Shown here in pieces: positions 1 to 21,038 of a stretch of 21,038 bases of DNA. The DNA lies in NCBI GenBank assembly GCA_039545335.1, contig BCIN01000003.1, positions 2,675,060-2,696,097 on the forward strand, given 5' to 3'. The position numbers and the translations under genes are program-made. How positions within the stretch are numbered: the stretch's first letter is position 1; each line of letters begins with the position of its first letter. The notes below the pieces were generated by a model. The model worked only from the letters and a program-made list of their open reading frames with translations. It was not told the origin of the DNA and did not search any database. The DNA comes from Kondoa subrosea (Eukaryota).

Positions 1-1326
1 CGCTCAGCAGCTTCAGCTCTGTTGTACTGCACATCAATCTGTTCTGAAGTCGCAGTGGCCGAAGGCATCGAGATTGGTTGCTCATCGGTCGAAGGCATGT
101 GAAGTACCACTGAGGATACGTTGAGTGATACTGAATGGTAGCCAGTGCTCACGCGGCCCTGATCGCTTGTCAATCAGCCTCCATTCGATAGTAAAGAAAG
201 GAAGACCCACAATCGGAACACGATCTGGTACTTCGTCGATATCATGAGTGCCAAATTTGTATTTGTTTGACTCATAATCAACATCAGAGAAGTGAGGAGC
301 TGTGTCACTAGGGTTAGCCATCACTTTAACATGTCTTGTGATAGACATACGCTGATAAACATCGGGCGTTTCCTCCGTGTAATACAGCTTCATAGCAATG
401 TAGCGACGGCGAGGAAGCTCGCTCATGAGTTGAGTCATGGTGATCAAGCGCTTTACGAGCAGTTGTACATCGGTCTTGACTTGATCGCGAGTTTGGTGCT
501 TCTTGCGCTTCGCTTCGTAACCGATTTCCGTAGCATCGACTTCGATGTCTTTCAGCTCATCTCGTACATTCATCGAAGGTTTGCTGAATGTGCTAGTTGT
601 CCCATCGGATGCAGTTACGGTTTGATCAGTATAAGAGAAGTTTAGTCTGCCTCGCACGTGAGCAAGGCGTACATGATTCAAAGATATGCTCACGTATAAC
701 ACTCGATCAAGTCATTAGGACGGTCAGGGTCGACCTGTTATGTTTCAGTAGTGAATGCGTCAAGGCAAAAGAGAGCAAACATAGATAGCAAGCATCATAG
801 TCTTCAAGAAGCTACGATCGAGTGCATCTTTGACACCATCCATGTAGTCGAGCAAGCGATCGCCTTCCTTCGAGCCGCCTCGATGAAGTTTCTTGATACG
901 AACCGAGTTACCTGAAGCCTTGGGATGCGCTTTCTTGCCAATACTTTCGCAGAAGATCAACAGCAGTTTTTTACAGTAAATATAAGGTAGCTTACGTCTC
1001 ATCGGTAAAAGCGCTGCAAGCAGAATTCAGCTTGTGCAGCGCTAGAACGCAATCAAGTGACACACTCATCAGGAAAGATACCTCTGTTTTCGCGTGATAT
1101 TCAGCTCTGAAGCAATCACATTGAGTCAGCACTCACCTTAGAAAAGAGATACAGCCAATTGCAGCATCCCTGGACTCTAAATATCAGAAGTAAACAATGG
1201 CCATTTCGAGCTCAAAATCTACATGAGGAGCTTCACTTCAGTCAACGACTGCTGCTTGGTGATCAAAGCTTGATCAGTAGCTTGAGATTGGACCTGCTTG
1301 GGTGGTCGAAGTAGCTGCGAAGTCAT
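1..1326 (-). CDS. HOP1: Meiotic HORMA-domain axis protein, Hop1/HORMAD family (multi-exon; 3' end beyond the left edge)
   Basis: ATG at 1326. Manual splicing gives MTSQLLRPPKQ...QQSLTEVKLLM|DAAIGCISFLR|GIFPD|DAFTDET|...IKKLHRGGSKEGDRLLDYMDGVKDALDRSFLKTMMLAIY... and later LVKRLITMTQLMSELPRRRYIAMKLYYTEETPDVY. These match Hop1 HORMA motifs (YLRGxFP, GVFDAL, LPxxRYxxMKLxYxxxTP). Confidence 0.9.
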
Positions 1327-1340
1327 CGTTTGTGGTCAAG
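1208..1340. repeat. Left arm of a 133-bp (or longer) inverted repeat: 14 nt of leader, HOP1 exon 1 and the start of intron 1
   Basis: Reverse complement of 20906-21038, with mismatches only at 1303, 1311, 1312 and 1331 (129/133 identical, no gaps; aligned by eye). Confidence 0.97.
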
Positions 1341-1463
1341 GCCTGGGGGAGATCGACGCAAAGAGAACGACGCGAGCAGACTCTATGAGCCATATGGAAT
1401 AATGTCCTACAGAGCGATGCAACTGGTTTCTATAGAGAGGCATACACAGATTACGCATAATGA

Positions 1464-3799
1464 TCACATCAAGAAAGACCTATCTTCGCCCGGAAGATAA
1501 TCAAATACCTGGATCAGACCCTCAGTATTGGCGCTACAGGTGCCTTGAAGTAAGCGAGCAAGCTTACCCTAACCTGGCCATCTTCCGAGCAGGCAATGAT
1601 GCGAGAAGTATCAAATTGCAAAGAGAAGATCCGCGTTGGCCTGCAAATCGACTGAGAATTGCGAAGAACACACGACAAGAAGCGTTACTGACTGTGCACC
1701 AATAATGTGAAACCTCAAATGACCAGTTTTTCGATCGAAAATTTTGATGGATTTGTCTGACCAGATAATCAACCAGATGATACCACAAAGAACAAGGACT
1801 TACCATAGCTTCCAGTGACAATGAATCGCTGATCGGCTTGCACCGTCCTGATGAGATCCGTCCGTACTTGGAGGCTATTCAGCGCAGTCCGACCCAACAA
1901 CTCAAACACCCACCATCATATCCATTCATTGGAGGACCGCGATGGAGAGGAGGTGCTACGGTCTTAGTCCTCACAGGTGGACCAGAAAGACTTGGGAAAG
2001 CTTGCGAAGATGCCATCATCAAATTACCGCTCGAAACATCCGTTACTCGAACATAGCTATCCGAAGCACCAGTGATGAGTGTAGGGCCGTTGAACCAGAG
2101 TGAAGCTATTCCTCCCGTATGACCTTCAATCACTCTTAGGCATTCGTAGGTTGAGGTAGACCAAATTCGTGCTGTACGGTCACCGGAAACAGATGCACAC
2201 AAGCCGTTCTTGACCTTGATTGAGTTCACAGCGCCTGCAATGCAACCTCTACATCCACTCAAGCGAATCAAGGGCATGCAACTCACCTCGATGGCCTCTC
2301 ATTACAGCCAATGGTTCAACTGTGGGAAACAAGCTCCACATTCTGACAGTGCGATCTGTTACACCATCGGCGGGCTTTCAACAGCATAAAGGCATGGTCT
2401 GACCTTTAGAGCAGGTAGCGAGTACATTTTCCTTGACTTGAAAATTGATATCCAAAACAGATTCCGTGTGATCGGTCAATACTTGCATGCATTCTCCCGT
2501 GTCCAAGTTCCAGATCCTGCATGTACAATCGCTTGATCCAGTAACAAGCAAAGGATAAGGAGATGTATCCGATCTAAAAACATCTTCATATTGTAATGCA
2601 AGTACACTCTTCTCATGCCCGCTGAATTTGCGTATCAGCTTGTTGGTAGATGTGTCATATTGTCGAACGTAGGAATCTCGATTGCCAACTAGCAAACGGT
2701 TGCCATCCTGTAAAGGCATCTCAACAGGAGAACAGTGCAGTTCGGCATCGACCTACGAATTGTAGACAATACGAATGATTCTCCCGAACAGTAGTACCGG
2801 GCGTTTGCGGTAAGATTGGAGCACCGGATGCGTCAAGTTTCCTTTCCGGTGTCTGAATATCGCTAATAGTGAAGTTGCCTTCGAGAAAGTTTCGCTTGGC
2901 TTGCTTTTGCAGACGATAGAGATGACGAAAGTTGACGCAAGGACGTTTGTCATGTGTGTAATGATGAGAAGAGATGTGCAAAAGATCCAGAGTTGCTGGC
3001 GCCTTCTGACCTTCCCAGATATTGTCAAAGACATTGTGCTTTCTTTTGCTTGCAATATCGCGGAAAACTGAGGAGCTTTGGATCGGATCAGTCTTGTTCT
3101 TGGTTCTTGCGTTGACAAGCTGATTGCCGGAAACTTCATTGAGCTGAAACACTCCTCTGCGCTGCGAAGGAGTGAAAGAACGTTGGAGACCCAGCTTTAC
3201 CACAATCTCATCGTCTTGTCCCAATCCGTCATCATCTTCGCTTTCAGCTTCTGCAGGTATGACATCTTGTGGAATAGTGAAGTCTTCTTCGGGAACACTC
3301 TCGCTCAGGTTCCAGTACTCCACTGCTTGCTTATCATAAGTGAATCCTTCTGCTACATAGATCTGCTTCCAAAGCTTCTGATCGTCAAGGCACCTATTCC
3401 GCCAGGTGCTGGAGACTCTTCCACATTTGAGTAAGTCAGGAGCCGCCAGATGAGAGAGAATCAAGCAGGAAAGCTCTTGCGGCAGGAAGGATATGAAGTC
3501 AACCTTTGTATCTTGTGAAACGGAGTGTAAGAGCGTCTCTAGTTGAGGTGTTGGCAAAGAATACAATAACAGCCGAGCAAGTTCTGTGCATTGCTGATCA
3601 GAAGCAGTCAGGCCGCTACAGCGGAGGATGACTGACCAGTACGTTCAGCCAGGGGAGCACTCAGTACAGCCTGCGTCTCCTTTGGCAGAGCAATGTCGAG
3701 ATCTTCTAATGACCCTTCGCCAAACGAGCGGTGCATGGCTAGACTGGGATGGTGCGCACAAAATACCTGCTGCAGCAGCTTCGATGACTCTTGTGTCAT
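1464..3799 (-). CDS. F-box/WD40-repeat SCF substrate receptor, FWD-1/Pof11/beta-TrCP-like (multi-exon)
   Basis: F-box DFISFLPQELSCLILSHL...RVSSTWR...DQKLWKQIY. WD40 repeats GHEKSVLALQY...LVTGSSDCTCRIWNL, GHTGGIASLWF...ITGASD, DLIRTVQAD..FIVTGSYDKSIKIFDR and RIFSLQFDTSRII. Last exon VFDYLPGEDRSFLM* ends at 1464. The ATG at 3799 is probable, not certain. Confidence 0.85.
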
Positions 3800-3850
3800 G
3801 CTGCTCTTCTCTAGAGGGACAACTGACTGTCGCAGGTCAAGGTGCTCAAT

Positions 3851-3860
3851 ATTATATAAT
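3851..3860. promoter_or_regulatory. TATA-like element (ATTATATAAT) upstream of the F-box/WD40 gene
   Basis: Palindromic TATATAA-containing 10-mer about 50 nt upstream of the ATG at 3799, in the short CSC1/F-box spacer. It could instead be a 3'-end signal of the CSC1 gene. Confidence 0.4.
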
Positions 3861-3910
3861 GACAAACAAAAGCGAAGGACGTGATATCATTACTGTCTCG
3901 TGCTAATGTA

Positions 3911-6900
3911 CTAACGATGCGGTGTATACTGTCCATCTCCTTCGTCATCTGACTCTTGCCCATTCGGTCGCCAGTGACCATTATTGCTGACTGATCCTCC
4001 TCTTCTTCTCGAATAGAAAGTACGGTATCTCGTCCCATCCTCTTGAGCATCGTCTTCATCTTCTTCTGATCCTCCTCCATCATCTTCTGCAGTATCAGAC
4101 GCAGCACCGTCCCTCCATGCTCTTGTTGCGTCATCAGTGCTTGGGAGACTGCTTTCCCTTCTTTGCCTTGGTCCTGAGCTTTGCGCATTGCTGGAACCGT
4201 TGACATCTTTCTTCAGCGTAGACCACCGACGCTTCAGATCAATCACAATTCCATCCGTCGAACTGAAACCGGACGACATTTGCTTATGCTCTTCTTTCTC
4301 CAGCGGTAACCATGGACTAGGCAAGAAAGCACCTAATGCAGGATGTCCATACCTCCGTCTTCCGGTACTGTCAGCACACATAAGTCTATCAGGCTTCAAT
4401 TCGCGAAATAGCGACATACTGCAAAACGCCATCAAAGACATCAGACATCGGAGGTTGCGAATAATCCGTTCGATCATCGTGCGCAACAATGTAGAGATTA
4501 TCGTCTTTCGGTTTGTATCGCTGCCGATTAAGGTTGGTTTGATTGAGCGTGACTGGATGGCCTTTCTTGAGTCGCTGCAGATCTGAGGCTTGACCTTCAC
4601 GTTCCGTTTCTGCCGCTTGGGAAATATTGACATAGTGTCCGAGTCCTTTGTATCTTGCGTGCATCCTGTATGAGCTGTAGAGTGTGCCCAGGAGTAATGG
4701 TACCATGCATGCACCTAAGGCGGCTGCCTTCTCGAGCAGGAAAAGACCAGTCATGAAAACTTGGAAGCTGTACATCTGATGTTAGACAGTAGACAGCTTT
4801 TCAAGGAGTTCATCTTACACAGAAAGACCGAATGCAATCCTGGAGAAGGTAATCGGCCAGGCTTGCCCACGCGACTCATAAGCTCGATAATACACATTGA
4901 GGAGTTTATATTTGTATACGAGGCTGTCATTAGGGGCTGCTTCAGACGAAATGACATCAAAAGCAGAGATCCGACTGACTATGACATGCCGAAATAGATC
5001 GTGGTAAATAGGAGGATTATGGGCATAATGATGCTGTAAGTGAGACCGATAGTGAATATTAAGATTGCTTGAGGGTAAACATAGCCTAGATTGATTACTG
5101 GAGGATTGTTGAGTTCGGCGTGATCTGCACTTATTTAGTATGTCTGCGAGTTATGCTTCGACGACCCCACCTCTAGGAGTTCTTGTAATGAAGACACGAT
5201 AGAACAGATTGGGTATAATGACTGCAAGTTGCACGAGCTGAATAGGTAAAAGACCAAGACCTTGGAGCATGATATACCTTGATCTCGCGTTAGCAAGAGC
5301 GATGGGATGGAGTTTCGCTGCTCACGACACATAGAAATTGCGAGCGGCCGGCAAGGATGTGGCTAAACGCTCAGGAAGCTTCATCGGCTGATCCGCCAGA
5401 TCTTGGGCCAGTGCCACCGTCCTGTCCGAATCGTCAGCTATACTCTGTTGTACCAAAGAATCATAACGCACGAAACAGAGACAAAAATGAAGAGCACACT
5501 ATTGTGCTAGATCAGTGCTATCCTCGGCAAAAATAGGTCACTCACGTGATCATCAAGAAAATGTAGTATTTTTTCATGAGCGAATACTCAATCCAGCTCT
5601 TCGCCTTCAGACCTTGGAAGATACACAGAGCTGTGGAGCAAAAAGAGGCCTCAGTATACAAAGTACACAGAGCTAGCATTCGATCCACCTTCAAGTAGAT
5701 AAGGCAACAAAGCATTGAAGGTGATCAAAGCCAAAGATGGCAAAGAGTTTTGTACCAGCGCTCGAATATAAGGGAATCGATCTATTGTTCTAGCGAGCCA
5801 AGGTGAATAATGCTTGATCTCCTCATACGAAAGCAAGCGAGCCAAAAACCACACGGGCGAACCCCATCCGATCAACAGCAAGATCATGATTCCTAGAACA
5901 AGGAAAGAGCGAGCCGCTGCTGAGAGATAAGGCATTCCGACATTGCCCCAATGTACATCTCGAGGTTCTGGTGCCAAAGCTGTTTGCATTTGAGACGTTT
6001 GAGGGTAGTGAACGGTCTGAAAGCATCTTAGCTGAGCATAGAGACTAAATCAATACGACTGACCTGTGCTGCTATTTGGCAACCAGCCATAGTCTCAAAG
6101 GTGACAAAAGCAACATCGGTTGGGCGGAAGCGACCCTTTCTTCTTTCGATGACTTTCTCATCCGCATCACGAAACTCTTTTGCGTAATACTCTAGCGCAT
6201 CAACCTTCTTCTTGAACCAACCTGGTCGAACCATAGGGCGATTCTTGCCTGGAACGGTGTACATTGCTGGAGCTTCGGGTAAGGCGAGCGTAGCTTCCTC
6301 GTCATCTTGATCCGGCGCCGCAGTAGGTGTAGTATCATCTTCGCCTTCATAATCCACCAGACGATCGTCTAATGTTGGATCTTCTTTGTAATCTTCGTCT
6401 AGTATTTTCGCAACTTCTCGATCTCTTTTATATCCCATACCAGGTTTGACTGGATTGCCAACATATGCAGCCCAAGTCTCTTCTAATTGCCTCAACTTAG
6501 ACGCCCTGATTGATAACAGGTCTCCCAATACACCAACTTGTCGCACTACATTGACGCTCTCGACTGCTAGACTTGATCCGATGCGCTCGAAATATTCTGC
6601 TAAGAGCTTCTCTGATTGAAGATGAGGTGGAATTCGAGTGATAATGACTGTTCGAGCGGGTATGGATTGAGCATGATCTAAGCTGAACAATTGTCTTGCG
6701 TGAACGAAGTTCCGATAGGTTCTGTTGAGTAGAAAGAGAGCCAAAAGACTGAAGGTATAGGTGAAGATGAGATGTGAAGTGAGGTACAGATCTGAGCCAT
6801 GCATGATGTGATGCTTCTTGGACTGGAACAATAGTAAGAAAGACTGATCTCCATCTGAGTCAGTTGGAGGCACTCCTTCTATCGATCCGTTCTCTGTCCA

Positions 6901-7383
6901 GTTGATCGGTACGAGGATAGCTGCTGCCAGCAAACTACAAATGCCAAAGAACTGGAAGCCCAGCTTGAAGAAGGAAAGCAAGACCACAGCGTCCAGTCCG
7001 ACTAATTGCAAAACCACATGTTCAGATGTTCTCAGAGTAGGTAAGATCCAGCCAAAGAAGGAGTGCTTCTCATGAACTTCATGCGATGCAAAGCCCTTGA
7101 GCAGAGTTCGGGGAGCATAAAGAACCTTGAAACGAGTACGACCATAGCAGAAGGCCAGGAAGCTGGTTATTCCTAAGAACAAGGAGATGCCCAACTGCGT
7201 CTCGAACCTTTTGCAAAGAGCATAAGCAATTGCGCGCTTGTATTTGTCTTGATTTGCTCACCAAGGCCCGTTCTGATACTTCCTCAGCTATTTCGGGGTA
7301 AGTGTGGCCCGTGTAAACAGATCGCTGCTTCTCACCTGCTCCGGCGGGCTGCCCAGAGGCGGATCTTGAGCCAAAAACTGCAT
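3911..7383 (-). CDS. CSC1/OSCA/TMEM63 (DUF221, RSN1-like) calcium-permeable mechanosensitive channel (multi-exon)
   Basis: Spliced N-terminus MQFLAQDPPLGSPPEQ|LRKYQNGPW|FETQLGISL. Family motifs LYAPR, FFGWI, VGLDAVVLLSF, ILVPIN, ARTVIITRIP, AFVTFET, APEPRDVHWGN, GYVYPQA and KYKLLNVYYR-type loop. Stop TAG at 3911. Confidence 0.92.
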
Positions 7384-7768
7384 CCAAAGACTTGCGAGTT
7401 CGTCGTTGTTATGCAACCAAGTCGGTGACGAATATGAAGGTGTCAACGGTAGCGCAAGGAAAACTGACAGGGACTATCAGTACGAGGCGGGTCAGCACTC
7501 TAGAAGATAGTGTAGGCGATGATGTGTTCAACGAAATCAATGTAATTACACTGCGAGAAGATGGTATAAGTTACGTAGCCCGCGATTCTCATGCGCGTGT
7601 GCAACATCCTCCAGAGCATTACGACGTTATCCACGAAGCCGTTGGTCGCAACAGTGCGAGGTGGAAGATGATGACGTAAGCAAAATCAAATGAATGTAAT
7701 AAACGGATTTCAAGCCATACCATACAATGGAGGCATACTTATGAGGAGGGTATACCGGATAAATAAGC

Positions 7769-10572
7769 CTATACGTGTTTGGCTTGCTGCTATGACAAAA
7801 GTCAGCGCAACGATTGAAAGCTCAAGAACAGACTAACCTCTTCTAGAGTAGACTCAGATGCTGAGTAGCCTTTCTCTGACGTCTTCTCTGCTGACGCTGG
7901 GGTCTCTTCGCTTAGATGGGCGTGTGGTGGAACATGATCGGCATGAGGTTCGCCGACTGCCGTCGACAGGAATTCTCGCGGCAGGACAATAGATCGATCG
8001 ATTGCCAGAGGCAAGCCTGTACAGTATCAGTGAATTATCATCAGCGAGAGAAAAGCTATTCACCTCGATGCCGCCCACGGATCATCACCAAAATGACGAC
8101 GAGCTTCGATAGAGTGCTAAAGGCGCCCGAGAGACTGAAGTTGTCGTAGCTGACGCCTAGAGACAAGCCTACACCTGCGTAGCTTTTGTGTATGTCAGTA
8201 CATTCAGATCTGTTGGGCGAAGAGACGTTATTCACGCGGATATCATCTCAAAGAGAACCGTAAATTGGTTGATGTAGCTGTAATCTGCGCTCATGACCTA
8301 TCCTGGATTTGTCAATTCCTCCGAGACAAATTAAGCGATTGCGCACTTTTGTTCTTTCGATGATGAGCACGAGCCAGACAGCGGCTATCAGGTACCATAT
8401 ATCCCAACTGAGCTGTCTCCGGAGGTGGAACATGAACTTGTCAAGCTGTGAGCTATCGTGTGCGCAGATAATGCGACAATCTCACATATTTGCTAAACAC
8501 CTACAGTAGAGTCAGATAAACGCGACAATCATGCTAACGCTACGCTCACCTCTCGCTTATTCCTACCATGTGGTACAAGATCATCGGTATCCGCTTTAGG
8601 TGGTTTGTAAACTCCCAAACTTCGATCTTCGTAACTGTTTGTCGATCGAACAGCCATCGCGATAGCTAGTGGTGCATAGTATGAGCAAGATTCAGGTAGA
8701 ATATGGAGCAGAGACAGACGATAAATTGCGATATACATGAATACGATATAAAGCCATCTGTGATAGCAATATCTTAGTCAATTACTCATACGATGAAACA
8801 TTGCTTACTGAAGACCCGGGGCAATGCTTCCCATCGGCACAATAGCAAACCCTGATGCCCTTACTGCTATACCTTGAAACAAACCGCCAAGCACCACCTC
8901 ACCACCGGTCAATGTATGTAGAATGGGCAAACCATGATTGAGCACAATGAACGAAACCCATTCGACAGCAGACAAGCAGACCAGCGAGGCGACCAAGAAC
9001 CATGTTTGATATGAAGGAAAGACGTAGAGGTAAACTCTTCTGGGATGTTCAAGCAGGAAAGACAAGGTTGCGTATAGATCCGAATCCGTAGGTGATAATT
9101 TGTATAGCGTCCATATCAACCCTCTCAAGAGTATGGGAAGACCCACTGCAAAAGGTCAGAGCTGTAAGAGCGTGAAACAACGACTTACTGTTGCCAGCAA
9201 GAATGGTGATAAGTAGAATGATAATCCTTTGCAGCGAAACTTGTATTAGTTTATCTCCTGCACCATTACGTTACATTACATTACATTAACTGATCATTGA
9301 CGAAAGGTATCATTCCAGTGTCACACAAGCTCAGTCCACCGCCAGTATAAGCGGAGAGGATTTGAAAAGCGACTACAGAGATGGTTCTTCAGCAGCTAAA
9401 CTGAATAGATGACATTAGCTTACGGAACCAAGCTCTTGGTACGACTCTAGGCTGAGCATCAAAGAGATCTCGATATTTGTTTCTTCCATATACAGCTCCG
9501 ATCAAGATGACGAATCCAAGGAGCTGAAGCGCGAAGAAGTACTATCCACTATAATCAGTTACAAGCCTTTAAGAGGTATCAAAAGGTATCGGGCGAGCTC
9601 ACAAGTGGAACAATCCACAGCAAAGCATTAAGAGCAGCATATTCCACACCTCCCAGTTCCTCAATCTGATCATCCTCCAAATCCTCCAACTGGAAACGAG
9701 AATTGCGACCAATTTTCAGGTCAAAGCCTAACCAAGGTCGATCTTCAGCATCCAATACTCGTTGATTGTGATCGATAGTCAAAGTTTTCTTCAACTTCTT
9801 GTGCCTTTCAGGGGACAATCGAGCAACCACAGAAGTAACCAAACTTGCAAATGTTCTGAAAGTATCGAACCCGCCTAAGCCCTGCTGATTTGAAGGTATA
9901 GGTGTATGCGAAATATGAATAAGAGGAGCGACTTCTTTCTCATGCTTGGAATTCGCGCCGCTGTATGCATAAGTTCGTCTAAGGGCTAAACCAGTATCGG
10001 GCGGATCTTGAGTATGCGAACGAGTGAAAGTCCGAGTGAAAAGGTTGCTCTTTTGATGACTGAGCTCATTTTGCTTGCGTGCCAATATACGTAAGCGCTG
10101 TCCTTGAAGAATCCCAGCACAATGAGCTCGGACTTATTTGCTTTTTATGTTAGCTGAGTCGAAATTCGTAGACAGGATGAGAGACATACAGAAATGGCGT
10201 CTGACCAAAACAACCAACCATGATACGAAAGTCACATTCCCTATTCCCAATAGAATGAACAAGATCGCTTGTTGCCAGCCAGTTAGAGTCGACAAATTCA
10301 CTGTTGCCAATCCACAAACAGCCATAGCCGATACGCATCTACATTTGCACTACTCAGAATTGCTCCGTAAGCCTAGGAGTAGAGTACAAGACGCACAGAA
10401 ATAGCGAATCGATGAAACTTATGTGAAACTCTCCATTGCAAGCCCAAAAGATGACAGCGAAGAAAAGAGGAATCAAAGTGAAAGCTATAACGTGTAATCT
10501 GAAGAAGTTGAGGTTCTTGATAACGTATTTCTGCAGCCAAGGGAGCTGTGGTCCATGCTTGATTTCACCCAT
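7769..10572 (-). CDS. Trk-family potassium transporter (multi-exon)
   Basis: NFFRLHVIAF...FIDSLFLC, MAVCGLATVNLSTL, GRNSRF..L...QIEELGGVEYAALNALLWIV, FLLEHPRRVYLYVFPSYQTWFL, FQGIAVRASGF, VRSTNSYEDRSLGV, HLRRQLSWDIW and GLPLAIDRSIVLP. Predicted last exon QQAKHV* ends at 7769. Confidence 0.92.
9265..9288 (-). repeat. Pentanucleotide microsatellite (GTAAT/GTAAC)x4 at a TRK intron 5' splice site
   Basis: + strand attac gttac attac attac atta. On the - strand it forms four tandem GTAAY units starting at the donor at 9284. Confidence 0.7.
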
Positions 10573-12204: not shown

Positions 12205-12226
12205 CCCGTGGTATCTCGTCAAGCAA

Positions 12227-12244: not shown

Positions 12245-12318
12245 CCCTTTGCTTCAGAACAGCCGTAATCCCTGTCTTCTCCTTGCGTTTTATACAGTAG
12301 ATCTATCACAGAGCACAA

Positions 12319-12922: not shown

Positions 12923-12976
12923 AAGGAACATTTCATATTCTGTATCTGTATCATTGCAATGTGTTTCGATACCCAA

Positions 12977-14778
12977 TCATGCACTCTCTTCAGGCTTAGC
13001 TCTTCCAGTCTCGTCCTTAATCTCCGTACTGTCAAGACATTAGATCAGAGTTTCCACTGCTAAAACAGCTCACGAAGTAAAGCTCAAGATCCTAGCCTGA
13101 TCCAACAACTGCACCACTTCCTCTGCTTCTTCCACTGCCATCTTGCCCAAAACTTTGTTAACCGCTTCCAGTTCACCTTTCTTCAAAGCACTCTTCAAGT
13201 TTTTCGGAAAAGATTCGAAAATCTTCCATCTCCCATCCAAAAACTCTCTCAACTGATCAATATCCACATCTTCCGATCCTTCACCTTCAACAGTAATATT
13301 TTCAGGCGCAGGTCCTTCAGGTACATCAAATCCTATTGTAGTATTTGGATCAGTAGCGACAAGTTGAATAGTTTCTTTTTCATCCGTTTCGTTTGAAGCT
13401 GCTCTTTCAGCCGCTAGTTCTTTAGATCGACTGATGATTCGATCCGTTGTTCTTTGTACATCTTCTTCAAACACTTGTCTACCTTTATGTTGACCAGCCA
13501 TACTGTTTTTCCGCAAATCACTTCATTTTTTTATCATTGAAAGTGAAACGAAAACTCACCGCTTGAAGAATAAAGCAACACCATCTTTACCCAATTTAGC
13601 AGAATATTGAATAATCAAAGCTTGATGAACGCATTGTTTAGCAAATTTGGATTTACCCTGTCCAGCAGCGGTAAAAGCTTCCATAAGTAAAGCATCCGTC
13701 GTTTCTTCCGTTAACAATTCAGGATGATCAGAAATTGCAGAGAAAAGTTTCTCCCATTTATCAATTGGGATTTGAGCAAATTGTTGAGCTGCTGGAGTTA
13801 GGTTTGGAATGTCTTCTTCGGAATCGGAAGAGGAATCATCCTTTTTCGCAGCGGTACTTGCGGAAGAAGAAGGATTGAGGACTTCGATAGCAGTAGATTT
13901 ACTTGAAGCAGGAGCAGCTTTTGGTCGAGGTTTCTCAATTGGTTGTTTGGAAGAAGCGTCTTTCGCTACGTACTATTGAAACCAATTTAAGTCAGTCTTT
14001 CTGCCAAAGGAATCCAAACGTACACTCGTATCAAAGCCATCATGAATATCTTCAGCTGTGATATGTTTCTTCTGCTCTGCTTCTTCCGCAGCTAATTCCT
14101 TTTCGCATTCAGCAGATCGATTGATCATGTTCTGCTTGTGGAATTGCAACTTCTCCAAATACCTCTTAGTTTTCTCTTCCGTATCTTGCTCATCTTTGAC
14201 TTCATTAGACAGCTGAACAAAAAGGGCAACCATCATTTCATCATAAGAAGGTCCATTGGAATTGGTTGGTTTCTCTTGAGATTTCTTAGCCTTCATCTCC
14301 GCCGTTGTACGTTCGATGTAAGATAAACCTTCTGAGCGAGTAGAAGAGATATAAGTGTCCATTCGAGGTAACAAGGTCGTGTTCATTTCAATCTCAGATT
14401 TGAGTTGCATAATCTTGTGCTTTCTTGCATCTCGCTTTTCGTGAATATCTCTTTGCTTCCATCTGATGGAGCAGTATATCAGTCAGTATACAGCCATACA
14501 GGGTTCTGTAGTAGCGAACCGAATGAACCTATTCTCAAAGATCAGAACATCGCGAGAAAAGGCAGTATGCAGAGGAAAGACAGACGATTTCTTATCTACG
14601 TTCGGGTGTACTTCGACATCCGAATCATCACTGAGCTCGAGAGCTGAATCCACAGTTGATCAGTTTGACCAAACTCGACCAATGCGCATCACATACCGTC
14701 CCATTTGGCTGCATTCGCGCGTCAGCATCGTACTCTGCAGTGCTTGCCTGGCTTACAGTAGTTCAAACGAGCTCCCAT
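12977..14778 (-). CDS. CDC37: Hsp90 kinase co-chaperone Cdc37 (multi-exon)
   Basis: Spliced MGARLNYS|KWDA|LELSDDSDVEVHPNVDKKS..RWKQRDIHEKR, KKHITAEDIHDGF, QCVHQALIIQY, LVATDPNTTIGFDVPEGP and FESFPKNLKSAL...VNKVLGKMAVEEAE. Ends TEIKDETGRAKPEESA* at 12977. Confidence 0.96.
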
Positions 14779-15162
14779 GATCGTTTGCGGACAAGAATTG
14801 TTCATGTGTCTTACGTATTTCATTTGCACGAGCTACAGCGCCGGTACCCTTGCGCATGAGTAGAATCTGACATTTGGGGCTCGCAAGTGTGGTCTCCCTT
14901 GTTCCGGTCTTGTAGAGATTCGCTCGAAATTCATTGTTGCAACTCCTCTGCACGAACATTGTGCAACATCCTAGTCGATAAGCGGAGGTTTATCGCTCTA
15001 TGATGCTTCTTGCTTTGCATTACCTCTTCAGCCAACTTTGCATATTGACAACGCCGGGAGGAGGACTTCGCCCTTTGTACATTCGCGAAGGCTAGATCGC
15101 GCTCATTTTCTCTCTGCTTCGTCTCTCGGTTCCATACGACAACTCGCTCTTCGATTGCCGGA

Positions 15163-17129
15163 ATGCCCAACGCTCTTACTAACAATTCCCAATACTTGAG
15201 GGATCAGCTTCAGTTCAACCACGACCTGATGGTGACTCAGTACCGCCTCGAACAGCAGCGCAGGCAACATGCCGCTCTGCTGGACAACCAAGAAGCTTAC
15301 CGTCTTCAGCATGGATCGCCTCACCCGCAGCAGATTCACCTATCTCCCACCGCCCCTCTGACCATATCGCATCAGCCTGCCTTGCATTCAATCCCTACTC
15401 GAACTTCACCTACTGTGGGAGTCCCTTTGGTTGATCAGAATGCTCGTCGCTCCTCTCTCGTTCAAGAAGCTCTTTCTCCTAATCCCGAAAGGTAATTTGA
15501 CTTCGGATGAAGCCTTCTTATAAGCGCTGATCAGGAGAGCTAGACTTTCTCAGAGTGACATAGTAGGCTCCGCGCATCAGCACGACGATGCGTTCCGTAG
15601 CTTTCGGGCTTACGAATTCAATCCACAAGCCTGGGCAGCACGACTTGCGCCTATGATAGTAAGGCCCTTGTATCTCTTACTGGTTGTATGGGCTTGCTGA
15701 TTATACACAGGCAACATTCCGAGAACGAATCGCGGCAGAGCGTCCGCATGACTATTCCCTGCCCTATCTTTCATTCACAACTCAGCTGTACAACGTTCAT
15801 ACTCAGCGTCTACAAGAGCATGAAATCAATCTCCCTCTGGAAGAGCTTCTCGTTCTATCGGGTTTGATCCAAGACGCTCGCACCGCCGAAAGAATTTTGC
15901 CTTCGTATCGGAAACTGCTCCAGCACGAAAGGAACGAATTATCTTACAGAGCGCCTATCTGGCGATTGATCGAAGCATATGCATCAATGATCGATCTAGC
16001 AGGGCATCCTGGGTGGCATGAGATCTATGAGAGACCAGTTCTTTCTCGCGTTCGAGTCGTCAATGGGCAACACAATTGGGGAAACATTGCTTATATACTT
16101 CAACATCACATGCATTTGGAAAACGAAGTTTCGGAGAAGTCTCTTGCGGCCGCGATAGATGTCGCAATCAAACCTTTGGTACAACAAAACACTTTGTCCA
16201 ATGGACGGGTAGGCAGCAAGAGCCCGACTCCACCAATTTCCATGCTGATATACCTTTGCAGAGACAATTCGAAACTTTGGACATCATATTGGTTCCTTTG
16301 GCTGTTCCAGACCATATTTCCGTACTAGCAATTTACCCAAAGCAAAAGCGTTGGGTCCACCACGATTCTAACAGACAAGGTCCGCAGATCACTACTTTTT
16401 ACGATCAGGTAAGTACACTCTACCCATTGCTGCAGCTCAAGTCCTGAGGCACACATCCTCTAGTGGGCTTATGATGATCAGCGTACTATCGTTGCTTGTT
16501 TCAGTTCCTTCTGCTCTGCGCTAGACAGGCGCTGGCGTGAGCTTGAAGGTACGCCAGTTCCTGTCCAAATTCACCAGTACAATCCAGGACAAGTATCAGT
16601 ATGTATTCTTGCGCATGGTTATACCTGGTAGCCGTTGACGATTGTAATTTCTAGACGATGCCGAACCAAGGTGCAAACATGGAATGTTCTGCCTGGACGA
16701 TGAGCGCTAGTGAGAGAACTTAAGTTTGCAGGTCACTGTCACGCTGAATGTAATGCAGTGAAATGGCTCTTGTTCTCCAAGCCGGAATTGGATGCGTTAT
16801 GTCCGTGGACAATCGAACAGAAATCTGCTCTGCGGATGACCATCGCTTCTGAGTTGATTAATGGGTCTATCATGGGTAGCTTGGATCACAACATGGAGGG
16901 TGCCCATTGGAAAGCATATGCTTTAGGCAGCGCTCAACCAATTTTCAAACATAAGCGCTTTGTCGATGAACTCGGACCGGGATTGGAAGTGAACCATGAA
17001 ATGGGAGTTACTCAATTACATCAAGTGGGACCAGCGAAGCTTTGGTATGGACAATTTGCAGCGAGAGGACATGCGGGCGGCATACGTCGTATTCAAACCT
17101 TCGTTTCGGGAGTTAATTTACCTGTCTGA
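15163..17129 (+). CDS. Orphan multi-exon gene encoding a divergent Ulp1-like (peptidase C48/CE clan) cysteine-protease domain
   Basis: Exons join in frame across GT-AG introns (e.g. 16209-16261). The spliced product has DIILVPLAVPDHISVLAIYPKQKRWVHHDS (His 16313, Asp 16364), PNQGANMECSAW (Gln 16667, Cys 16685) and EQKSALRMTIASELING. The start codon is uncertain. Confidence 0.65.
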
Positions 17130-17378
17130 GTATTGCTGCAATTTTACTTTCGTTGGTGTGACCCTCCCGGCGTGTCAATCAGGCACCAACTTCTCTCGAA
17201 GATCCAGTAAAAGCATTCGAGCCGTCAAAGGGAAAGGGCATAACAGGCTTTTCGGGCCAAGACAATGAGATGCAGATATTGATACAATGCAATCTATTGG
17301 GAACAAGAATCAGATATGCACTAGCGAAAAAGACCTAACTTACGAAATACAAAACAGCCGCCAAGCGGTAAAGCAGAA

Positions 17379-17920
17379 TCAGTCGTCGCGCCCTCGCATC
17401 AGGAAGCCCTTCTCCTCTAGTAGTTCTTGATCTTCAGCTGGCAATGTACCAGTCATTCTAGCTGCATATAGTCCGGGTGTAAAACGGTCTATATTGGGAT
17501 GAGTTGTTGAGGCGACTTCTTCGTCTTCTCACTGACCTATCCTCTGAAATTTGGCCTGACGATCGAGAAGACCTTCAGCTCCAAAGTCAGCGACGACAGA
17601 CAGACGACTCACAACCCAACTTTCTTTAGGCTGCACCATGGCTATCGCTCCATCGAAAGTACCAGTTGTACATTCGAGCACTCGTTCTCCACTACCTTTC
17701 ATCTGCAATCCTGCCTACTTAAGCTTCTGTTCCCACATCCTCGCAGCAAGAATCAACCTACATCCAGAAAATCACAATTCGCGCATCCATGTTTCTTGAA
17801 GCTTGCCGCACTTTGTACGAGCGAACAGGCTGTCCAAGTCATTTATGAGCTACAGGGCCTTCACTGCCAACTGCTGGGCGTACAAAGGCACGCTCTGAGT
17901 TTCGATTTGACAGATGACAT
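17379..17920 (-). CDS. SPT4: Transcription elongation factor Spt4 (five exons; largely missed by the ORF track)
   Basis: Spliced MSSVKSKLRACL|SCSLVQSAASFKKHGCANCDFLD|MKGSGERVLECTTGTFDGAIAMVQPKESWV|AKFQRI|DRFTPGLYAARMTGTLP...RGRDD*, with the Spt4 zinc-finger CxxC...CxxC and SWVAK motifs. Confidence 0.95.
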
Positions 17921-18026
17921 GCTTGTTCGACTTGAACCACTGCTCGAATTCAGACAGAGCCTGTCACCGCACAAATCTGCTCGAGACTTTTCTTCTTCTT
18001 CCTCTCTGTGCTTTTGTTCAGCCAAT

Positions 18027-19087
18027 ATGGGCTTGCTGACCATAATGCGCAAGAACCGAATGAAAGAAAAGGAGATGCGGTTTCTCATGCTGTTCGCTCA
18101 CTATTCGCTTCCTCTTAATCTTCCTTCTCATATTCGTATGTCGCGTGAAAAAGTGGATTAGACAACGCAGGGAAAACGACTGTACTTCGAAGAATCAATG
18201 GTGAAGACATTTCTGAAATAGCTGTGCGCACCAACTCTTCTATGTTGCAGAGATATATTGTCTGAGATGTCTCGAATGATTAGCCGACATTGGGTTTCAA
18301 TATCAAATCTCTGATACATCGCGGGTCTGCTTCTTGTAACCATGCTAATGCCCTAGCTCATTGAAGAACAGAACAGATATACATTGAATATATGTATCTG
18401 ATCTTTCCTCATTGACGCATTTCTGTATCTTACACTAAAGCGTAAGGGGACATTGGCGGACAGAAAACACTTCGACCTTATTGGCAAAACTACTTTGAGC
18501 GTACTGATGCTTTAATTTGGGTGGTCGATGCGGTGGATGAACGCCGGATGGCTGACTGTGCGAAAGAGTTACATGATCTCTTGCGAGAAGAGGTAATGCT
18601 TTCCATTCTTTCTCTCGTCCGATCGTAGAGTGCTGATGGTTTATGAAGCGACTGACTGGCGCTAGTCTACTAGTACTAGCAAATAAAACAGATGTTGAAG
18701 GCTCGATGAGCTGCGAAGCTATACAACAGGTCAAATTCTATATTTGAAGCTGATGCTCTGCTGAACCAGCACAAAAGGCTCTGGATCTGGACTTTATCAA
18801 GTCCCATGCATGGAAGATACAGGCTTGTTCTGCGAAGACAGGAGAGAATTTGTTAGAGGGCTTCGATTGGATAACGAAAGAGGTTGGATCCGTTCTATTT
18901 CGCGCAATGCCTCGTACTAATTCTATGCGATTAGGTCTCAAATCGAGTATACTATGGCGCTTCTGTCGGTTGGTCAGCAGTGATAGATACAGGACCGATG
19001 GAGGGGTTGAAAGAATTTGTAAAGACGAAGGACAAAGAAACTGCTCAAGAGACGCAGCAGAGTTCTTCAGTATCGACGAGCACTTGA
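18027..19087 (+). CDS. ARL2: ARF-like small GTPase Arl2 (Cin4/Alp41 family; multi-exon)
   Basis: [31 protein letters not shown]..., [51 protein letters not shown]. The last exon VSNRVYY... ends TGA at 19087. Confidence 0.95.
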
Positions 19088-19101
19088 TGCGCTACTGTAA
19101 G

Positions 19102-20865
19102 CTACGAGAATAATTTCAATGCTTTCGAGGGTAAAAAATTCGCTATTGTACATATTGCACCCAAGTATACCGTGAGAATCAGTAAGGCGAGAGAATTTGA
19201 CGCTGTCATTGTTGGTAATGTCAAATTCACCAACCCAGTGAGAACATTGGCCTGCTTGAAAAGTCAGCGTGAAAGCATTCAAATGAACAAGACTCGCCAG
19301 CAGGAATATAAGTAGACTATGGCGATTGATAGCGTCGAAAGTCTTTGGTACGCTTTCTCCTTTTGAAGCTAGTTGATCCACCAAGCTATATCCGAGCAAG
19401 AATGTGATATTGAAGCTTGCAACCCAAACAATATAAGGTAGATTGGCCTGATGATTATCAGTATACTAAATAGGGGTCGATACAACTGGACTGACCATTT
19501 GCCTTGACACTTGCAGTCCAAAGACCCATTTATGCCTGCACAAAGCATAGCCAATCCACCATGCGCAGCTCATGCTAGCTAAAAGAGTGAGCTTCTTGCC
19601 CGTTTTTGGTGGTCCTATATCTGATTTTCGTCGTTTCTCTGCACTTCTATAGGCGTAGTAAGGATCAGGCGGCAAGATGACCAGACCAGTGTCTAGTCCA
19701 ATGAGATAGATTGAAAAGTAGCCTATGAAACACTGAGAATGTGCTCTGCAGGACATTGATAGACCCTTACCAAGTATGGAGGCAAGACCTTCTTTGTTTG
19801 CTGAAACCAAGCCGATTCGAGGAGCGTGTATGACCCAATCTTGCATTGATGTGGACAATGCTAGCTGCTGTACTACGAAATGGTGAGGTGGATAGCAGCA
19901 ATGTGGAAGAGAGAACTCACTTGAGGCGATGATCAAACCCATGGTAGTAAAAGTGATGTACTTCTTTCCTTCTTGTACAGCAGTACCAAAGAGCGGCAAG
20001 GTAGCCAAAGTGAAGAAGAAGTTCCAGTGCACGCCGTATTCGGTTACATGTTCCTGGCAGCTTTTACTTAGAATAGAGTCATTGTAGGCATAATTTACAT
20101 ACAGGATAATCAATGCCTTTCACCATCACTAGTCTAACGAGACCCAAAGCTAATACAGCAAGACTACTCTTGATCGCTCTGATCATTCGAAATCTGAGAG
20201 GTGGTTGCCATTCGCTTCGCAGGATAGGCAGAGCTTGAACCAGGCCGAGCGTGAAGACGAATGAACCGACTCCCAAGTCCATCTAGATTTGGTGGTCAGT
20301 GAAGTATCGATCAGAGTAGATAGAAGCGCGCAATGCTTGTTCCCCAAGTTTCGCATTTCCCAAATGATCTAGGGAAAACAGGAAAGTCTACTGCTAGTAT
20401 GCAAATAACCGTCATAAGCATCATGTGACTTCGGTAGACGGTAACAGCGGGTTGATAGAATAGTTTCTTTCCTGTCGCACGTTGAGCATCTTGAAGATCC
20501 GCGTCAATAGCTTTAGCCGAAGGTGTTGAACTTGTTGCAGATGATGGATGTGCGTCGAACGAGCGTAAGAATAGAGCGGCAAGGGAGATGCAGCAATTGA
20601 ATATAACCGCAAAATTGGAGAAGATTGTAAGAGCGAGAAGCAAAGGAAGAAACAAGACGAAGAAGTCAAGAAGAGGAGAGTGAAAGCGTCGCAAGTACGT
20701 CCAGAGTGTATATGTCGTCTATCAGATGTTATGAGCCTTTGACCAGCAGAAGGACCTTTGCAACCTTACCAGAGCTGTCAAGCATACAACATTGATTCTT
20801 GCTACAGAATTGCCGGTATTATTGCTGACAAAGGCTATCTTCGCTGCCTTGTAGCCATCTTGCAT
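19102..20865 (-). CDS. GWT1: GPI inositol acyltransferase Gwt1/PIG-W (multi-exon)
   Basis: [93 protein letters not shown] and [21 protein letters not shown]. Stop TAG at 19102. Confidence 0.96.
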
Positions 20866-20905
20866 TTGCCGCTCCCTTGACTCGCGTAATTTGAAGTCGG
20901 ACACG

Positions 20906-21038
20906 CTTGACCACGAACGATGACTTCGCAGCTGTTTCGACCCCCCAAGCAGGTCCAATCTCAAGCTACTGATCAAGCTTTGATCACCAAGCAGCAGTCG
21001 TTGACTGAAGTGAAGCTCCTCATGTAGATTTTGAGCTC
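20906..21038. repeat. Right arm of the HOP1 inverted repeat (truncated by the window end)
   Basis: Reverse complement of 1208-1340. Identity continues to the last base of the window. Confidence 0.97.
20920..21038 (+). CDS. HOP1: Second copy of the HOP1 5' end (exon 1 at 20920-21023 plus the start of intron 1); whether it is a full gene or a fragment cannot be determined
   Basis: ATG ACT TCG CAG CTG TTT... gives MTSQLFRPPKQVQSQATDQALITKQQSLTEVKLL, followed by the same GTAGAT donor. It differs from the left copy by one amino acid (L6F). Confidence 0.7.

What the first reader, a model, noticed from the sequence alone, without database searches (positions are those of the whole stretch)
1208..21038. 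Inverted copies of the HOP1 start exon bracket a 19.6-kb, 10-gene block: candidate invertible (flip/flop) segment
Seen: 1208-1340 and 20906-21038 are a gapless inverted repeat (129/133). It contains the HOP1 ATG, exon 1 and the intron 1 donor, and both copies point outward. Identity stops 14 nt upstream of the ATG and continues to the window edge, so the repeat may be much longer. Known: gene-derived inverted repeats drive reversible inversion of multi-gene blocks in the flip/flop mating-type systems of Ogataea and Komagataella. Inference: crossover between the arms would flip 1341-20905 and swap the sequence upstream of each HOP1 body (the F-box gene 3' end versus the GWT1 divergent promoter). 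If only one arm continues into a full HOP1, this could be a promoter switch on a meiotic axis gene. Alternatives are a static inverted duplication of HOP1, or a heterozygous inversion in a diploid/dikaryon whose two haplotypes were stitched into one contig. No MAT gene or recombinase is visible in the block.
Basis: partly seen in the sequence, partly recalled or inferred. Interest (0 to 1): 0.85.

Follow-up and report, generated by a model that had tools for sequence, protein, structure and literature searches.

The report
Two inverted HOP1 genes bracket block
A basidiomycete yeast carries two mirror-image copies of the meiotic chromosome-axis gene HOP1 on either side of a 19.6-kb block of housekeeping genes; the copies are old, both look functional and now and then copy sequence from each other, and nothing points to a programmed genetic switch.

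Summary
The inverted repeat is real: 1208-1340 against 20906-21038, 129 of 133. The longest exact arm is 95 nt, against 13-20 nt in 20 shuffles.

It is much longer than the window shows. Independent contigs of two runs of one sample confirm both junctions. They put the shared parts of HOP1 at twice the depth of the interior and the copy-specific parts at single depth. They also show a second version of the HOP1 body down to window position 1 and beyond. This is a true two-copy duplication. It is not a haplotype mosaic or a misassembly.

Identity between the copies is patchy:
- 97.5% at the 5' end
- under 90% in the middle
- 90% over 409-564
- about 98% further on

In 409-564, 14 of 16 differences are synonymous (dS 0.62, dN/dS 0.03). 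The duplicates are therefore old, both under selection, and partly homogenised by gene conversion.

The closest analogue is the Saccharomyces chromosome XIV flip/flop region. No MAT gene or recombinase lies in the block. Whether the block ever flips could not be tested.

The scan has noted similar repeat-bracketed blocks elsewhere in this genome, made of other genes.

The parts
1..1326 (-). HOP1 copy 1, 5' part. Exons: E1 1326-1223, E2 1169-1137, E3 1083-1066, E4 1013-996, E5 943-781, E6 734-694, E7 646-211, E8 158 to beyond the window start. The gene runs off the window.
   Evidence: Pfam HORMA on 85-711 (E 5e-14) and 763-1026 (E 7e-8). My splice model of E1-E7 gives 271 aa without a stop. 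It scores up to E 5e-48 against the 62 library relatives, whereas the single exon reached at best 1e-13. E8 is open to the window start.
1179..1340 (.). Arm 1, high-identity 5' tract (zone A): 14 nt of leader, exon 1 and most of intron 1. 1208-1340 can be compared inside the window. 1179-1207 is inferred from a double-depth contig.
   Evidence: 129 of 133; 124-nt contig 1179-1302 at depth 307.7 against 142.8 for the interior. Contig 1273-3950 (X1), or 1273-9256 (X2), crosses 1340/1341 with 0 differences.
565..1178 (-). Copy-specific middle of HOP1 (zone B): 355 exonic and 259 intronic nt. No second-copy contig was laid here at 90% likeness or more.
   Evidence: contigs 571-803 and 790-1208 at single depth (155.8, 145.5) with 0 differences, and no 'other letters' listed between 565 and 1302. 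Exon content.
409..564 (-). Diverged coding patch (zone C): the two versions differ at 16 of 156 sites, 14 synonymous and 2 conservative.
   Evidence: two 216-nt contigs on 379-594 at depths 147.6 and 152, one with 16 differences; dS 0.62, dN 0.016, dN/dS 0.027, binomial p 3e-8.
1..408 (-). Second high-identity tract (zone D): rest of E7, intron 7 and E8, continuing at least 105 nt and probably 815 nt beyond the window start.
   Evidence: a single contig on 1-408 at 109.4 (X1, interior 54.6) and 239.5 (X2, interior 142.8). The records are 513 and 1223 nt long. 7-8 differences from the window: 6 in intron 7 at 171-189, plus 116 and 71 in E8. At position 71 the two runs carry different letters, so both letters exist in the sample.
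1341..20905 (.). 19,565-nt spacer block. Genes in order: F-box/WD40 (minus, about 1882-3644), unassigned frames (minus, 3814-4781), RSN1/PHM7 (minus, 4818-7257), TrkH-type transporter (minus, about 8059-9155 and beyond), Ebp2 (minus, 10977-12327), YBL028C (plus, from 12301), Cdc37 (minus, 13073-14482), unassigned frames (plus, 15049-18158), Spt4 (minus, about 17532-17714), Arf (plus, 18446-19110), GWT1 (minus, 19070-20865).
   Evidence: Pfam scan of 136 open frames. Over 1341-20000 the listed contig pieces show 0 differences and table 3 lists no other letters, so the sample shows no heterozygosity here.
20863..20865 (-). GWT1 start codon. It lies 40 nt from the arm and 55 nt, ATG to ATG, from the HOP1 copy-2 start.
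   Evidence: Read. The frame 20725-21036 (minus) carries the Pfam GWT1 N-terminus at residues 62-92. No in-frame ATG lies upstream within the window.
20906..21038 (+). Arm 2: start of HOP1 copy 2. Leader 20906-20919, ATG 20920, exon 1 to 21023, donor at 21024. The window ends inside intron 1.
   Evidence: a joint '1340 to 20000, opposite strands', side 68, in one contig of each run. Those contigs carry 973 letters beyond 20000, which equals 905 + 68. They therefore run from the GWT1 side into arm 2 exactly as in the window.

Best explanation
The window shows the inner ends of a large inverted duplication whose arms are two paralogous HOP1 (meiotic HORMA-domain axis protein) genes. The genes face outward around a 19.6-kb block of about 11 housekeeping genes.

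The duplication is old. Both copies have stayed under purifying selection, so both are probably functional genes. The arms interact by occasional gene conversion, which has re-homogenised at least two tracts: the 5' leader with exon 1 and intron 1, and the distal part of exon 7 onward. A diverged middle has been left between them.

Conversion between inverted arms is sometimes resolved as a crossover. The block can therefore be expected to invert rarely, on evolutionary time. Each such event would exchange the 5' parts and upstream DNA of the two HOP1 genes.

This is a passive structural feature of the same kind as the Saccharomyces chromosome XIV flip/flop region. It is not a programmed switch.

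Shown: two copies, both junctions, patchy identity, and the excess of synonymous differences.

Inferred: arm 2 is contiguous with the second HOP1 body; gene conversion is the cause of the patches; inversion happens occasionally.
For: Structure
- The inverted repeat matches at 129 of 133.
- Its longest exact arm is far beyond chance.

Two real copies (Logan contigs of two runs of one sample)
- A contig crosses 1340/1341.
- A contig runs from the GWT1 side into arm 2 (973 = 905 + 68 letters beyond position 20000).
- The shared 1179-1302 contig has depth 307.7 against 142.8 for the interior.
- Contigs on 1-408 are at 2.0x (X1) and 1.7x (X2) of interior depth and run 105 and 815 nt past the window start.
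- Copy-specific contigs are at 1.0-1.1x.

No heterozygosity
- Over 1341-20000 the listed contig pieces show 0 differences and table 3 lists no other letters.

Age and selection
- 14 synonymous against 2 non-synonymous differences over codons 50-101 of the large exon.
- dS 0.62, dN/dS 0.027, p 3e-8.

Patchiness that protein constraint cannot explain
- Synonymous differences are 14 of about 34 sites in 409-564, 0 of about 42 sites in 211-408 (Fisher p 2e-6) and 2 of about 24 sites in exon 1 (p 0.007).
- 43 nt of intron 1 are identical between the copies.

Copy 1 is intact in the window
- 7 exons give 271 aa with no stop.
- The model is HORMA-like along its length against relatives.

No switch apparatus
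- 0 of 136 open frames match a homeodomain, pheromone-receptor, HMG, recombinase or transposase family at E 0.01 or better.

Published analogue
- PMC9731477, abstract and section 10 read.
Against: - The sequence beyond 21038 was not seen. The link between arm 2 and the second HOP1 body rests on parsimony and on depth near 2x (2.15x for 1179-1302), not on a spanning molecule.
- Copy 2 is invisible over 565-1178. It could carry a deletion or a disabling change there.
- Contig depth is a proxy for copy number, and the tool warns against using it as such.
- Bubble-popping in contigs can hide isolated differences. '0 differences in 211-408' is therefore an upper bound on identity.
- Both runs are one sample and may be the source of the assembly. 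They test the assembly method, not the biology of other strains.
- Orientation heterogeneity was not testable, so a higher flipping rate is not excluded.
- No expression data were available.
Confidence: 0.72

Rival explanations
1. Programmed or high-frequency flip/flop. Recombination between the HOP1 arms reversibly inverts the block within a clonal population. This swaps the upstream context (F-box 3' flank against the GWT1 divergent region) of the two HOP1 genes to regulate meiotic competence.
For: - The geometry resembles the 19-kb invertible MAT region of Ogataea (PMC5720833, abstract seen in the listing).
- Identity ends 14 nt before the ATG, so the two copies have wholly different upstream DNA.
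- The arms have demonstrably exchanged sequence.
Against: - No MAT-type, silencing-related or recombinase family was found in 136 open frames.
- The pheromone gene noted by the scan lies on another piece of the genome (unchecked note).
- The exact-identity tracts seen are short (124 nt, and at most about 220 nt) and separated by a middle under 90% identical.
- Both copies look like full genes, so no on/off logic is apparent.
- The scan's notes record several other repeat-bracketed blocks with unrelated genes in the same genome. That fits a general rearrangement habit better than a dedicated switch (unchecked notes).
Confidence: 0.04
2. Inert scar of one old inversion made by staggered breaks. 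The duplication arose together with the inversion. Arm 2 or arm 1 is a decaying relic, and the similarity patches reflect constraint or chance rather than continuing exchange.
For: - Inverted duplications of non-repetitive DNA at both ends of an inverted segment are the signature of staggered breaks: 17 of 29 Drosophila inversions (PMC1885836, abstract).
- The arms sit exactly at the ends of the block.
- Follow-up notes on other loci of this genome reached this reading (unchecked).
Against: - dN/dS of 0.027 in the diverged patch shows that neither copy has been decaying for most of the time since duplication.
- The contrast in synonymous and intronic identity between tracts (p 2e-6 and 0.007) requires later sequence exchange.

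The staggered-break origin itself is compatible with the best explanation. Only 'inert' is contradicted.
Confidence: 0.15
3. Artefact: a heterozygous inversion or two haplotypes stitched into one contig, or a collapsed or misjoined repeat, with only one HOP1 per genome.
For: - The window ends inside the arm, so the second copy is not seen in full.
- The two runs may be the assembly's own data.
Against: - Both junctions are rebuilt independently by de Bruijn contigs carrying the arm-specific letters.
- Shared HOP1 contigs sit at about 2x and copy-specific ones at about 1x of interior depth. A heterozygous inversion predicts the opposite, 1x and 0.5x.
- Over about 18.7 kb of interior the listed contig pieces show 0 differences and table 3 lists no other letters, so the sample is not a diverged heterozygote.
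Confidence: 0.04
4. Arm 2 is only a short 5' fragment of HOP1 (about 160 nt or a little more) next to GWT1. The second HOP1 body seen in the contigs lies at an unlinked locus.
For: - No contig links arm 2 to the second body.
- Truncated inverted gene pieces are recorded elsewhere in this genome (unchecked notes).
Against: - The depth of 1179-1302 is 2.15x, not 3x, so there are two, not three, copies of exon 1.
- An unlinked full copy would then have to lack or have diverged in exon 1, while the fragment keeps an intact ATG, exon and donor. That needs more events.
Confidence: 0.1

Closest known systems
Saccharomyces chromosome XIV flip/flop (FF) region (Salzberg et al. 2022, PMC9731477; abstract and section 10 read)
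   Same: - A multi-gene block of similar size (24 kb and 15 genes there; 19.6 kb and about 11 genes here).
- The flanking inverted repeat consists of paralogous protein-coding genes tied to meiosis or sporulation.
- The arms evolve in concert by homogenisation.
- Neither is a regulated switch; the orientation there is stable on laboratory timescales.
   Different: - There the arms are 4 kb and almost identical. Here identity is patchy (97.5%, under 90%, 90%, about 98%) and one patch has dS 0.62.
- There both orientations are documented within and between species. Here orientation variation is untested.
- The genes differ (Centroid family and neighbour against HOP1), as does the phylum (ascomycete against basidiomycete).
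- Centromere proximity is unknown here.
Flip/flop mating-type switching of Ogataea polymorpha and Komagataella (PMC5720833; title and abstract start seen in the listing)
   Same: Inverted repeats flank a block of about 19 kb. Recombination between them inverts the block and changes what lies next to the genes at its ends.
   Different: - That system places MATa or MATalpha genes under centromeric repression and is induced by nitrogen starvation.
- Here no MAT-type gene is in the block.
- No silencing region is visible and no induction is known.
- The repeated unit is itself the gene of interest.
Inverted duplications at inversion breakpoints from staggered breaks (Ranz et al. 2007, PMC1885836; abstract read)
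   Same: A non-repetitive, genic sequence is duplicated in inverted orientation exactly at the two ends of a segment. This gives a plausible origin for the structure.
   Different: - Inversion relative to an outgroup could not be tested.
- Both duplicates here are maintained by selection and exchange sequence, rather than being simple relics.
Arm-to-arm gene conversion in large palindromes carrying germline-expressed genes
   Same: Paired inverted gene copies with a unique spacer are kept similar by intrachromosomal gene conversion, and the genes act in the germline or meiosis.
   Different: - Those arms are far longer and nearly identical.
- The setting is a non-recombining sex chromosome, which is not known to apply here.

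Membership tests
Ogataea/Komagataella-type flip/flop mating-type switch | Two inverted repeats flanking an invertible chromosomal segment | tested here: met
Ogataea/Komagataella-type flip/flop mating-type switch | MAT genes positioned at the repeats, so that orientation decides which set is expressed | tested here: not met
   0 of 136 open frames of 60 aa or more match a homeodomain, HMG/alpha-box or pheromone-receptor family at E 0.01 or better. The outer flanks lie outside the window.
Ogataea/Komagataella-type flip/flop mating-type switch | One end lies in a silencing region (centromere or telomere) | not testable with these tools
   The window is gene-dense throughout. No genome is held.
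Ogataea/Komagataella-type flip/flop mating-type switch | Both orientations occur in a clonal population, inducible by starvation | not testable with these tools
   Only contigs were available. They break at the shared 1179-1302 stretch.
FF-type evolutionary inversion region (Saccharomyces chr XIV) | Inverted repeat made of paralogous protein-coding genes around a multi-gene block | tested here: met
   The second copy's body is seen as alternative and double-depth contigs.
FF-type evolutionary inversion region (Saccharomyces chr XIV) | Homogenisation (concerted evolution) of the two arms | tested here: met
   Homogenisation is partial. Tracts with near-zero synonymous and intronic divergence lie next to a patch with dS 0.62. 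The test rests on one genome only, with no tree across strains.
FF-type evolutionary inversion region (Saccharomyces chr XIV) | Both orientations found among strains or species, re-created repeatedly | not testable with these tools
   No relatives' genomes are held. The 2 runs come from 1 sample.
Inversion-breakpoint inverted duplication (staggered breaks) | Segment inverted relative to an outgroup, with the duplicated piece single-copy in the outgroup | not testable with these tools
   No outgroup sequence. Library relatives of the protein are at most 50% identical and come without genomic context.
HOP1 / meiotic HORMAD family (identity of the repeated gene) | N-terminal HORMA domain | tested here: met
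   PF02301 at E 5e-14 and 7e-8. The 271-aa spliced model scores up to E 5e-48 against relatives. 10 of 10 relatives scanned have an N-terminal HORMA domain.
HOP1 / meiotic HORMAD family (identity of the repeated gene) | Long protein with a C-terminal chromatin-binding part (PHD-type) and closure motif, unlike the short Mad2/Rev7 proteins | tested here: inconclusive
   The gene runs off the window. Contigs continue at least 815 nt beyond it, so the gene is over 2.1 kb. Relatives are 541-1103 aa, and 3 of 10 scanned carry a PHD finger. The C-terminus itself was not seen. That the PHD and closure motif define HOP1 is recalled, not checked.
HOP1 / meiotic HORMAD family (identity of the repeated gene) | Meiosis-specific expression and function | not testable with these tools
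   No RNA run was listed.

The most novel reading that the evidence does not exclude
The two HOP1 paralogues form a working reversible inversion system. Crossovers in the homogenised 5' tract flip the 19.6-kb block at appreciable frequency. Each flip exchanges the promoters and first exons of two functionally distinct meiotic axis genes, one driven from the tiny region shared with GWT1 and one from the F-box gene's downstream flank. Orientation would then set the cell's meiotic axis protein supply. It would be a flip/flop acting on a core meiosis gene instead of on MAT.
Probability: 0.04. Interest if true: 0.85.

Novelty: new member of a known kind. Interest (0 to 1): 0.4.

Why it matters
A duplicated meiotic HORMAD with both copies under selection did not turn up in three searches of the fungal literature; I read only the result listings.

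The structure is a second, independent example of a multi-gene block bracketed by converting copies of a meiosis-related gene. It comes from a different phylum than the Saccharomyces FF region.

If orientation varies between strains, it would suppress recombination locally and link about 11 housekeeping genes.

The patchwork of conversion tracts gives a natural record of ectopic exchange lengths in a basidiomycete yeast.

The scan's notes record other repeat-bracketed blocks in this genome. Taken together they suggest a lineage prone to inverted segmental duplication, which may be more interesting than any single locus.

Tried and rejected
- **Whole genome.** None is held for this window, so the sequence beyond 21038 could not be read.
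- **The search for homologous proteins on the HORMA exon.** The 'longer' and 'near' length classes gave no hit at E 0.001 or better.
- **Solved structures by sequence.** 0 matches at E 1 or better.
- **ESM Atlas.** The best named cluster scored 0.75, below the level the tool calls a lead. Discarded.
- **Earlier findings.** Look-ups by place (near), by sequence and in relatives returned nothing.
- **RNA.** No RNA holder was listed, so expression of either copy is unknown.
- **Copy 2 over 565-1178.** No contig was laid at 90% likeness or more. 35 further pieces were not shown by the tool. This leaves the state of copy 2 there open.
- **Depth arithmetic on the unshown pieces.**
  - The bin depths exceed the sum of the listed contigs by about 11,700 and 13,300 depth-letters.
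  - Contigs 571-803 and 790-1208 overlap by only 14 nt.
  - This would fit two short unshown double-depth contigs near 565-600 and 774-819, meaning small exact islands shared by the copies inside the diverged middle.
  - This is my inference and is not used as evidence.
- **Which junction is ancestral.**
  - I considered whether the F-box side or the GWT1 side came first.
  - The GWT1 ATG lies only 40 nt from the arm. A new break there would have removed the promoter of a probably essential gene, which favours GWT1-HOP1 as the old pair.
  - Without an outgroup this stays a guess.
- **First 30-nt 'intron' reading of 1136-1107.** Rejected in favour of a 53-nt intron followed by two 18-nt micro-exons, which restore the conserved RG-FP-D-F motif of relatives.
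Full report
**Observation**

The repeat finder reports a single inverted pair in the window: 1208-1340 against 20906-21038, 133 nt, 97% complementary, 19,565 nt apart. A direct comparison gives 129 of 133, with mismatches at 1303, 1311, 1312 and 1331. Similarity is lost abruptly inward of 1340/20906. The longest exact inverted match is 95 nt, against 13-20 nt in 20 shuffles of the window.

Each arm contains an ATG (1326 on the minus strand, 20920 on the plus strand), a 104-nt first exon and a GTAGAT donor. The two reading frames differ by one residue (L6F) and two synonymous changes.

**What the gene is**

Two exons of the left-hand gene match Pfam HORMA (E 5e-14 and 7e-8).

A search of 1.84 billion representative proteins with the largest exon found 62 proteins at E 0.001 or better. 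The best full-length one is 44% identical, so the lineage is poorly sampled. Of 10 full-length hits scanned, 10 have an N-terminal HORMA domain and 3 also a PHD finger. The 5 whose names I looked up are basidiomycete proteins.

Guided by their consensus I derived a splice model:
- E1 1326-1223
- E2 1169-1137
- E3 1083-1066
- E4 1013-996
- E5 943-781
- E6 734-694
- E7 646-211
- E8 from 158 to beyond the window start

E1-E7 give 271 residues without a stop. They score up to E 5e-48 against the relatives, far better than any single exon. E8 is open to the window edge.

Calling the gene HOP1 rests on the N-terminal HORMA domain in a long gene and on relatives with the HORMA-PHD layout. The C-terminus lies outside the window.

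**The block**

Pfam on all 136 open frames of 60 aa or more gives nine firmly supported genes between the arms: F-box/WD40, RSN1/PHM7, a TrkH-type transporter, Ebp2, YBL028C, Cdc37, Spt4, Arf and GWT1. Two further stretches of long open frames have no firm family. No frame matches a homeodomain, HMG, pheromone-receptor, recombinase or transposase family.

The GWT1 ATG (20865, minus strand) lies 40 nt from the arm and 55 nt from the copy-2 ATG. Upstream of copy 1, the last Pfam-supported F-box/WD40 exon ends at 1882 with an in-frame stop at 1879-1881. A further unassigned open frame reaches 1567.

**Beyond the window**

No genome is held. One sample with two DNA runs, kept as Logan contigs, holds the stretch. 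It may be the source of the assembly. I laid the contigs on 1-20000 at 90% likeness.

1. *Left junction.* A contig covers 1273-3950 (X1), or 1273-9256 (X2), with 0 differences. The junction 1340/1341 is thus rebuilt with the arm-1 letters.
2. *Right junction.*
   - One contig in each run forms a joint '1340 to 20000, opposite strands', with 68 letters on the arm.
   - These contigs carry 973 letters beyond 20000, exactly 905 (20001-20905) plus 68.
   - The right junction is therefore rebuilt as well.
3. *Exact shared stretch.* A 124-nt contig on 1179-1302 has depth 307.7, against 142.8 for the interior. It is shared exactly by two copies, so the exact repeat reaches 29 nt past the part visible in the window. 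It branches at 1178.
4. *Copy-specific middle.* Contigs 571-803 and 790-1208 are at single depth (155.8 and 145.5) with 0 differences. No alternative version was laid there.
5. *Two versions of 379-594.* Two 216-nt contigs lie here at depths 147.6 and 152, one identical to the window and one with 16 differences, all within 409-564.
6. *Region 1-408.*
   - A single contig lies at 109.4 (X1, interior 54.6) and at 239.5 (X2, interior 142.8).
   - It carries 7-8 differences from the window and runs 105 nt (X1) and 815 nt (X2) beyond the window start.
   - At position 71 the two runs carry different letters, so both letters exist in the sample and the contig builder chose between them.
7. *Interior.* Over 1341-20000 the listed contig pieces show 0 differences and table 3 lists no other letters.

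**What this excludes**

A heterozygous inversion or haplotype mosaic predicts shared HOP1 sequence at interior depth and version-specific sequence at half of it. The data show twice and once. The interior is not heterozygous.

There are therefore two HOP1 bodies per genome, and the repeat spans at least 1.45 kb and probably more than 2.1 kb.

Caveats:
- Contig depth is only a proxy for copy number.
- The runs are not independent of the assembly.
- No contig physically links arm 2 to the second body. The 2.15x depth of exon 1 argues against a third copy.

**Age, selection and exchange**

I mapped the listed differences on the gene model. In 409-564 (52 codons) 14 of 16 differences are synonymous and 2 are conservative (L to M, I to T). 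This gives dS 0.62, dN 0.016, dN/dS 0.027 and a binomial p of 3e-8. The copies therefore separated long ago, and both have been kept by purifying selection.

By contrast:
- Exon 1 shows 2 synonymous differences in about 24 synonymous sites.
- 43 nt of intron 1 are identical.
- 211-408 of exon 7 shows none in about 42 synonymous sites.
- Fisher tests against the diverged patch give p 0.007 and 2e-6.
- Intron 7 carries six clustered differences (171-189), and E8 two (S to A, S to P).

Identity at silent and intronic sites cannot come from protein constraint. The simplest cause is gene conversion between the arms in at least two tracts.

Isolated differences may be hidden by bubble-popping, so the tracts may be slightly less clean than they look.

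**Mechanism**

I read the locus as an old inverted duplication of HOP1 whose arms still find each other.

Its origin may well have been an inversion with staggered breaks. That process leaves inverted duplicates at both ends of the inverted segment (PMC1885836, abstract). This could not be tested without an outgroup.

Conversion between inverted repeats is sometimes resolved as a crossover, and a crossover would flip 1341-20905. Depending on the tract used, part of the genes would flip too. Each flip would recombine the 5' parts and upstream DNA of the two genes.

The closest published case is the Saccharomyces chromosome XIV FF region. It is a 24-kb, 15-gene block between 4-kb inverted repeats made of sporulation-specific genes. 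The arms are continually homogenised, both orientations recur within species, and the orientation is stable on laboratory timescales (PMC9731477, abstract and section 10).

Here the arms are much less uniform. The longest uninterrupted identity seen is about 220 nt, so exchange should be rarer.

The Ogataea switch has similar geometry: a 19-kb invertible region (PMC5720833, abstract in the listing). It depends, however, on MAT genes and centromeric repression, and neither is seen here.

**Context from the scan**

Earlier notes on this genome describe several other blocks bracketed by inverted copies of unrelated genes or gene pieces. Follow-ups read them as old rearrangement scars with occasional conversion. 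Other notes place a pheromone gene on another piece and call the organism a basidiomycete yeast.

These are unchecked AI notes. They gave me the two paper leads and make a dedicated HOP1 switch less likely, but they are not evidence.

Three literature searches turned up no paper on inverted or duplicated HOP1 in fungi among the listings I read.

**Verdict**

- The switch interpretation is not supported but not excluded.
- The best reading is a pair of selected, partly converting HOP1 paralogues forming a passive, FF-like inverted repeat.
- It is a new member of a known kind, of moderate interest.

Noticed in passing
window 8662-9297: Extra contigs pile up on a TrkH-transporter exon. Summed depth is 486 against 143, with loose ends at 8662, 8703 and 9226-9230 leading into unrelated sequence. 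The genome seems to hold further copies of this exon region at 90% identity or more. This is another partial-gene duplication.
   Followed up: no
window 1083-1066 and 1013-996: HOP1 has two consecutive 18-nt micro-exons that together encode the conserved RG-FP-D-F motif of the HORMA domain. They are separated by introns of 52-53 nt. Gene finders would easily miss them.
   Followed up: partly
window 20865-20920: The GWT1 and HOP1 copy-2 start codons are only 55 nt apart and face away from each other. The GWT1 leader or core promoter probably lies inside the HOP1 arm. If so, arm 1 carries the same sequence pointing into the F-box gene's downstream flank.
   Followed up: no
window 9260-9297: A short ACATT/GTTAC-type microsatellite lies here. 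The read-laying tool skipped it as a repeat, and contigs break at it.
   Followed up: no
window 3921 and 12903: Contig ends carry 16-18 loose letters that look like library adapter remnants (my recollection of transposase-adapter sequence). They are artefacts of the run's contigs, not of the genome.
   Followed up: no
window 85-711 (HORMA exon): The best relatives among 1.84 billion representative proteins are only 44-50% identical. The word-indexed search found none. The lineage has no close sequenced and annotated relative in these collections.
   Followed up: partly
window 3814-4781 (minus) and 15049-18158 (plus): Long open frames without a firm Pfam family. The only matches are weak: RraA-like at E 0.0016 and Ulp1 protease at E 0.0058. 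The plus-strand frame 17511-18158 overlaps the Spt4 exon on the opposite strand.
   Followed up: no
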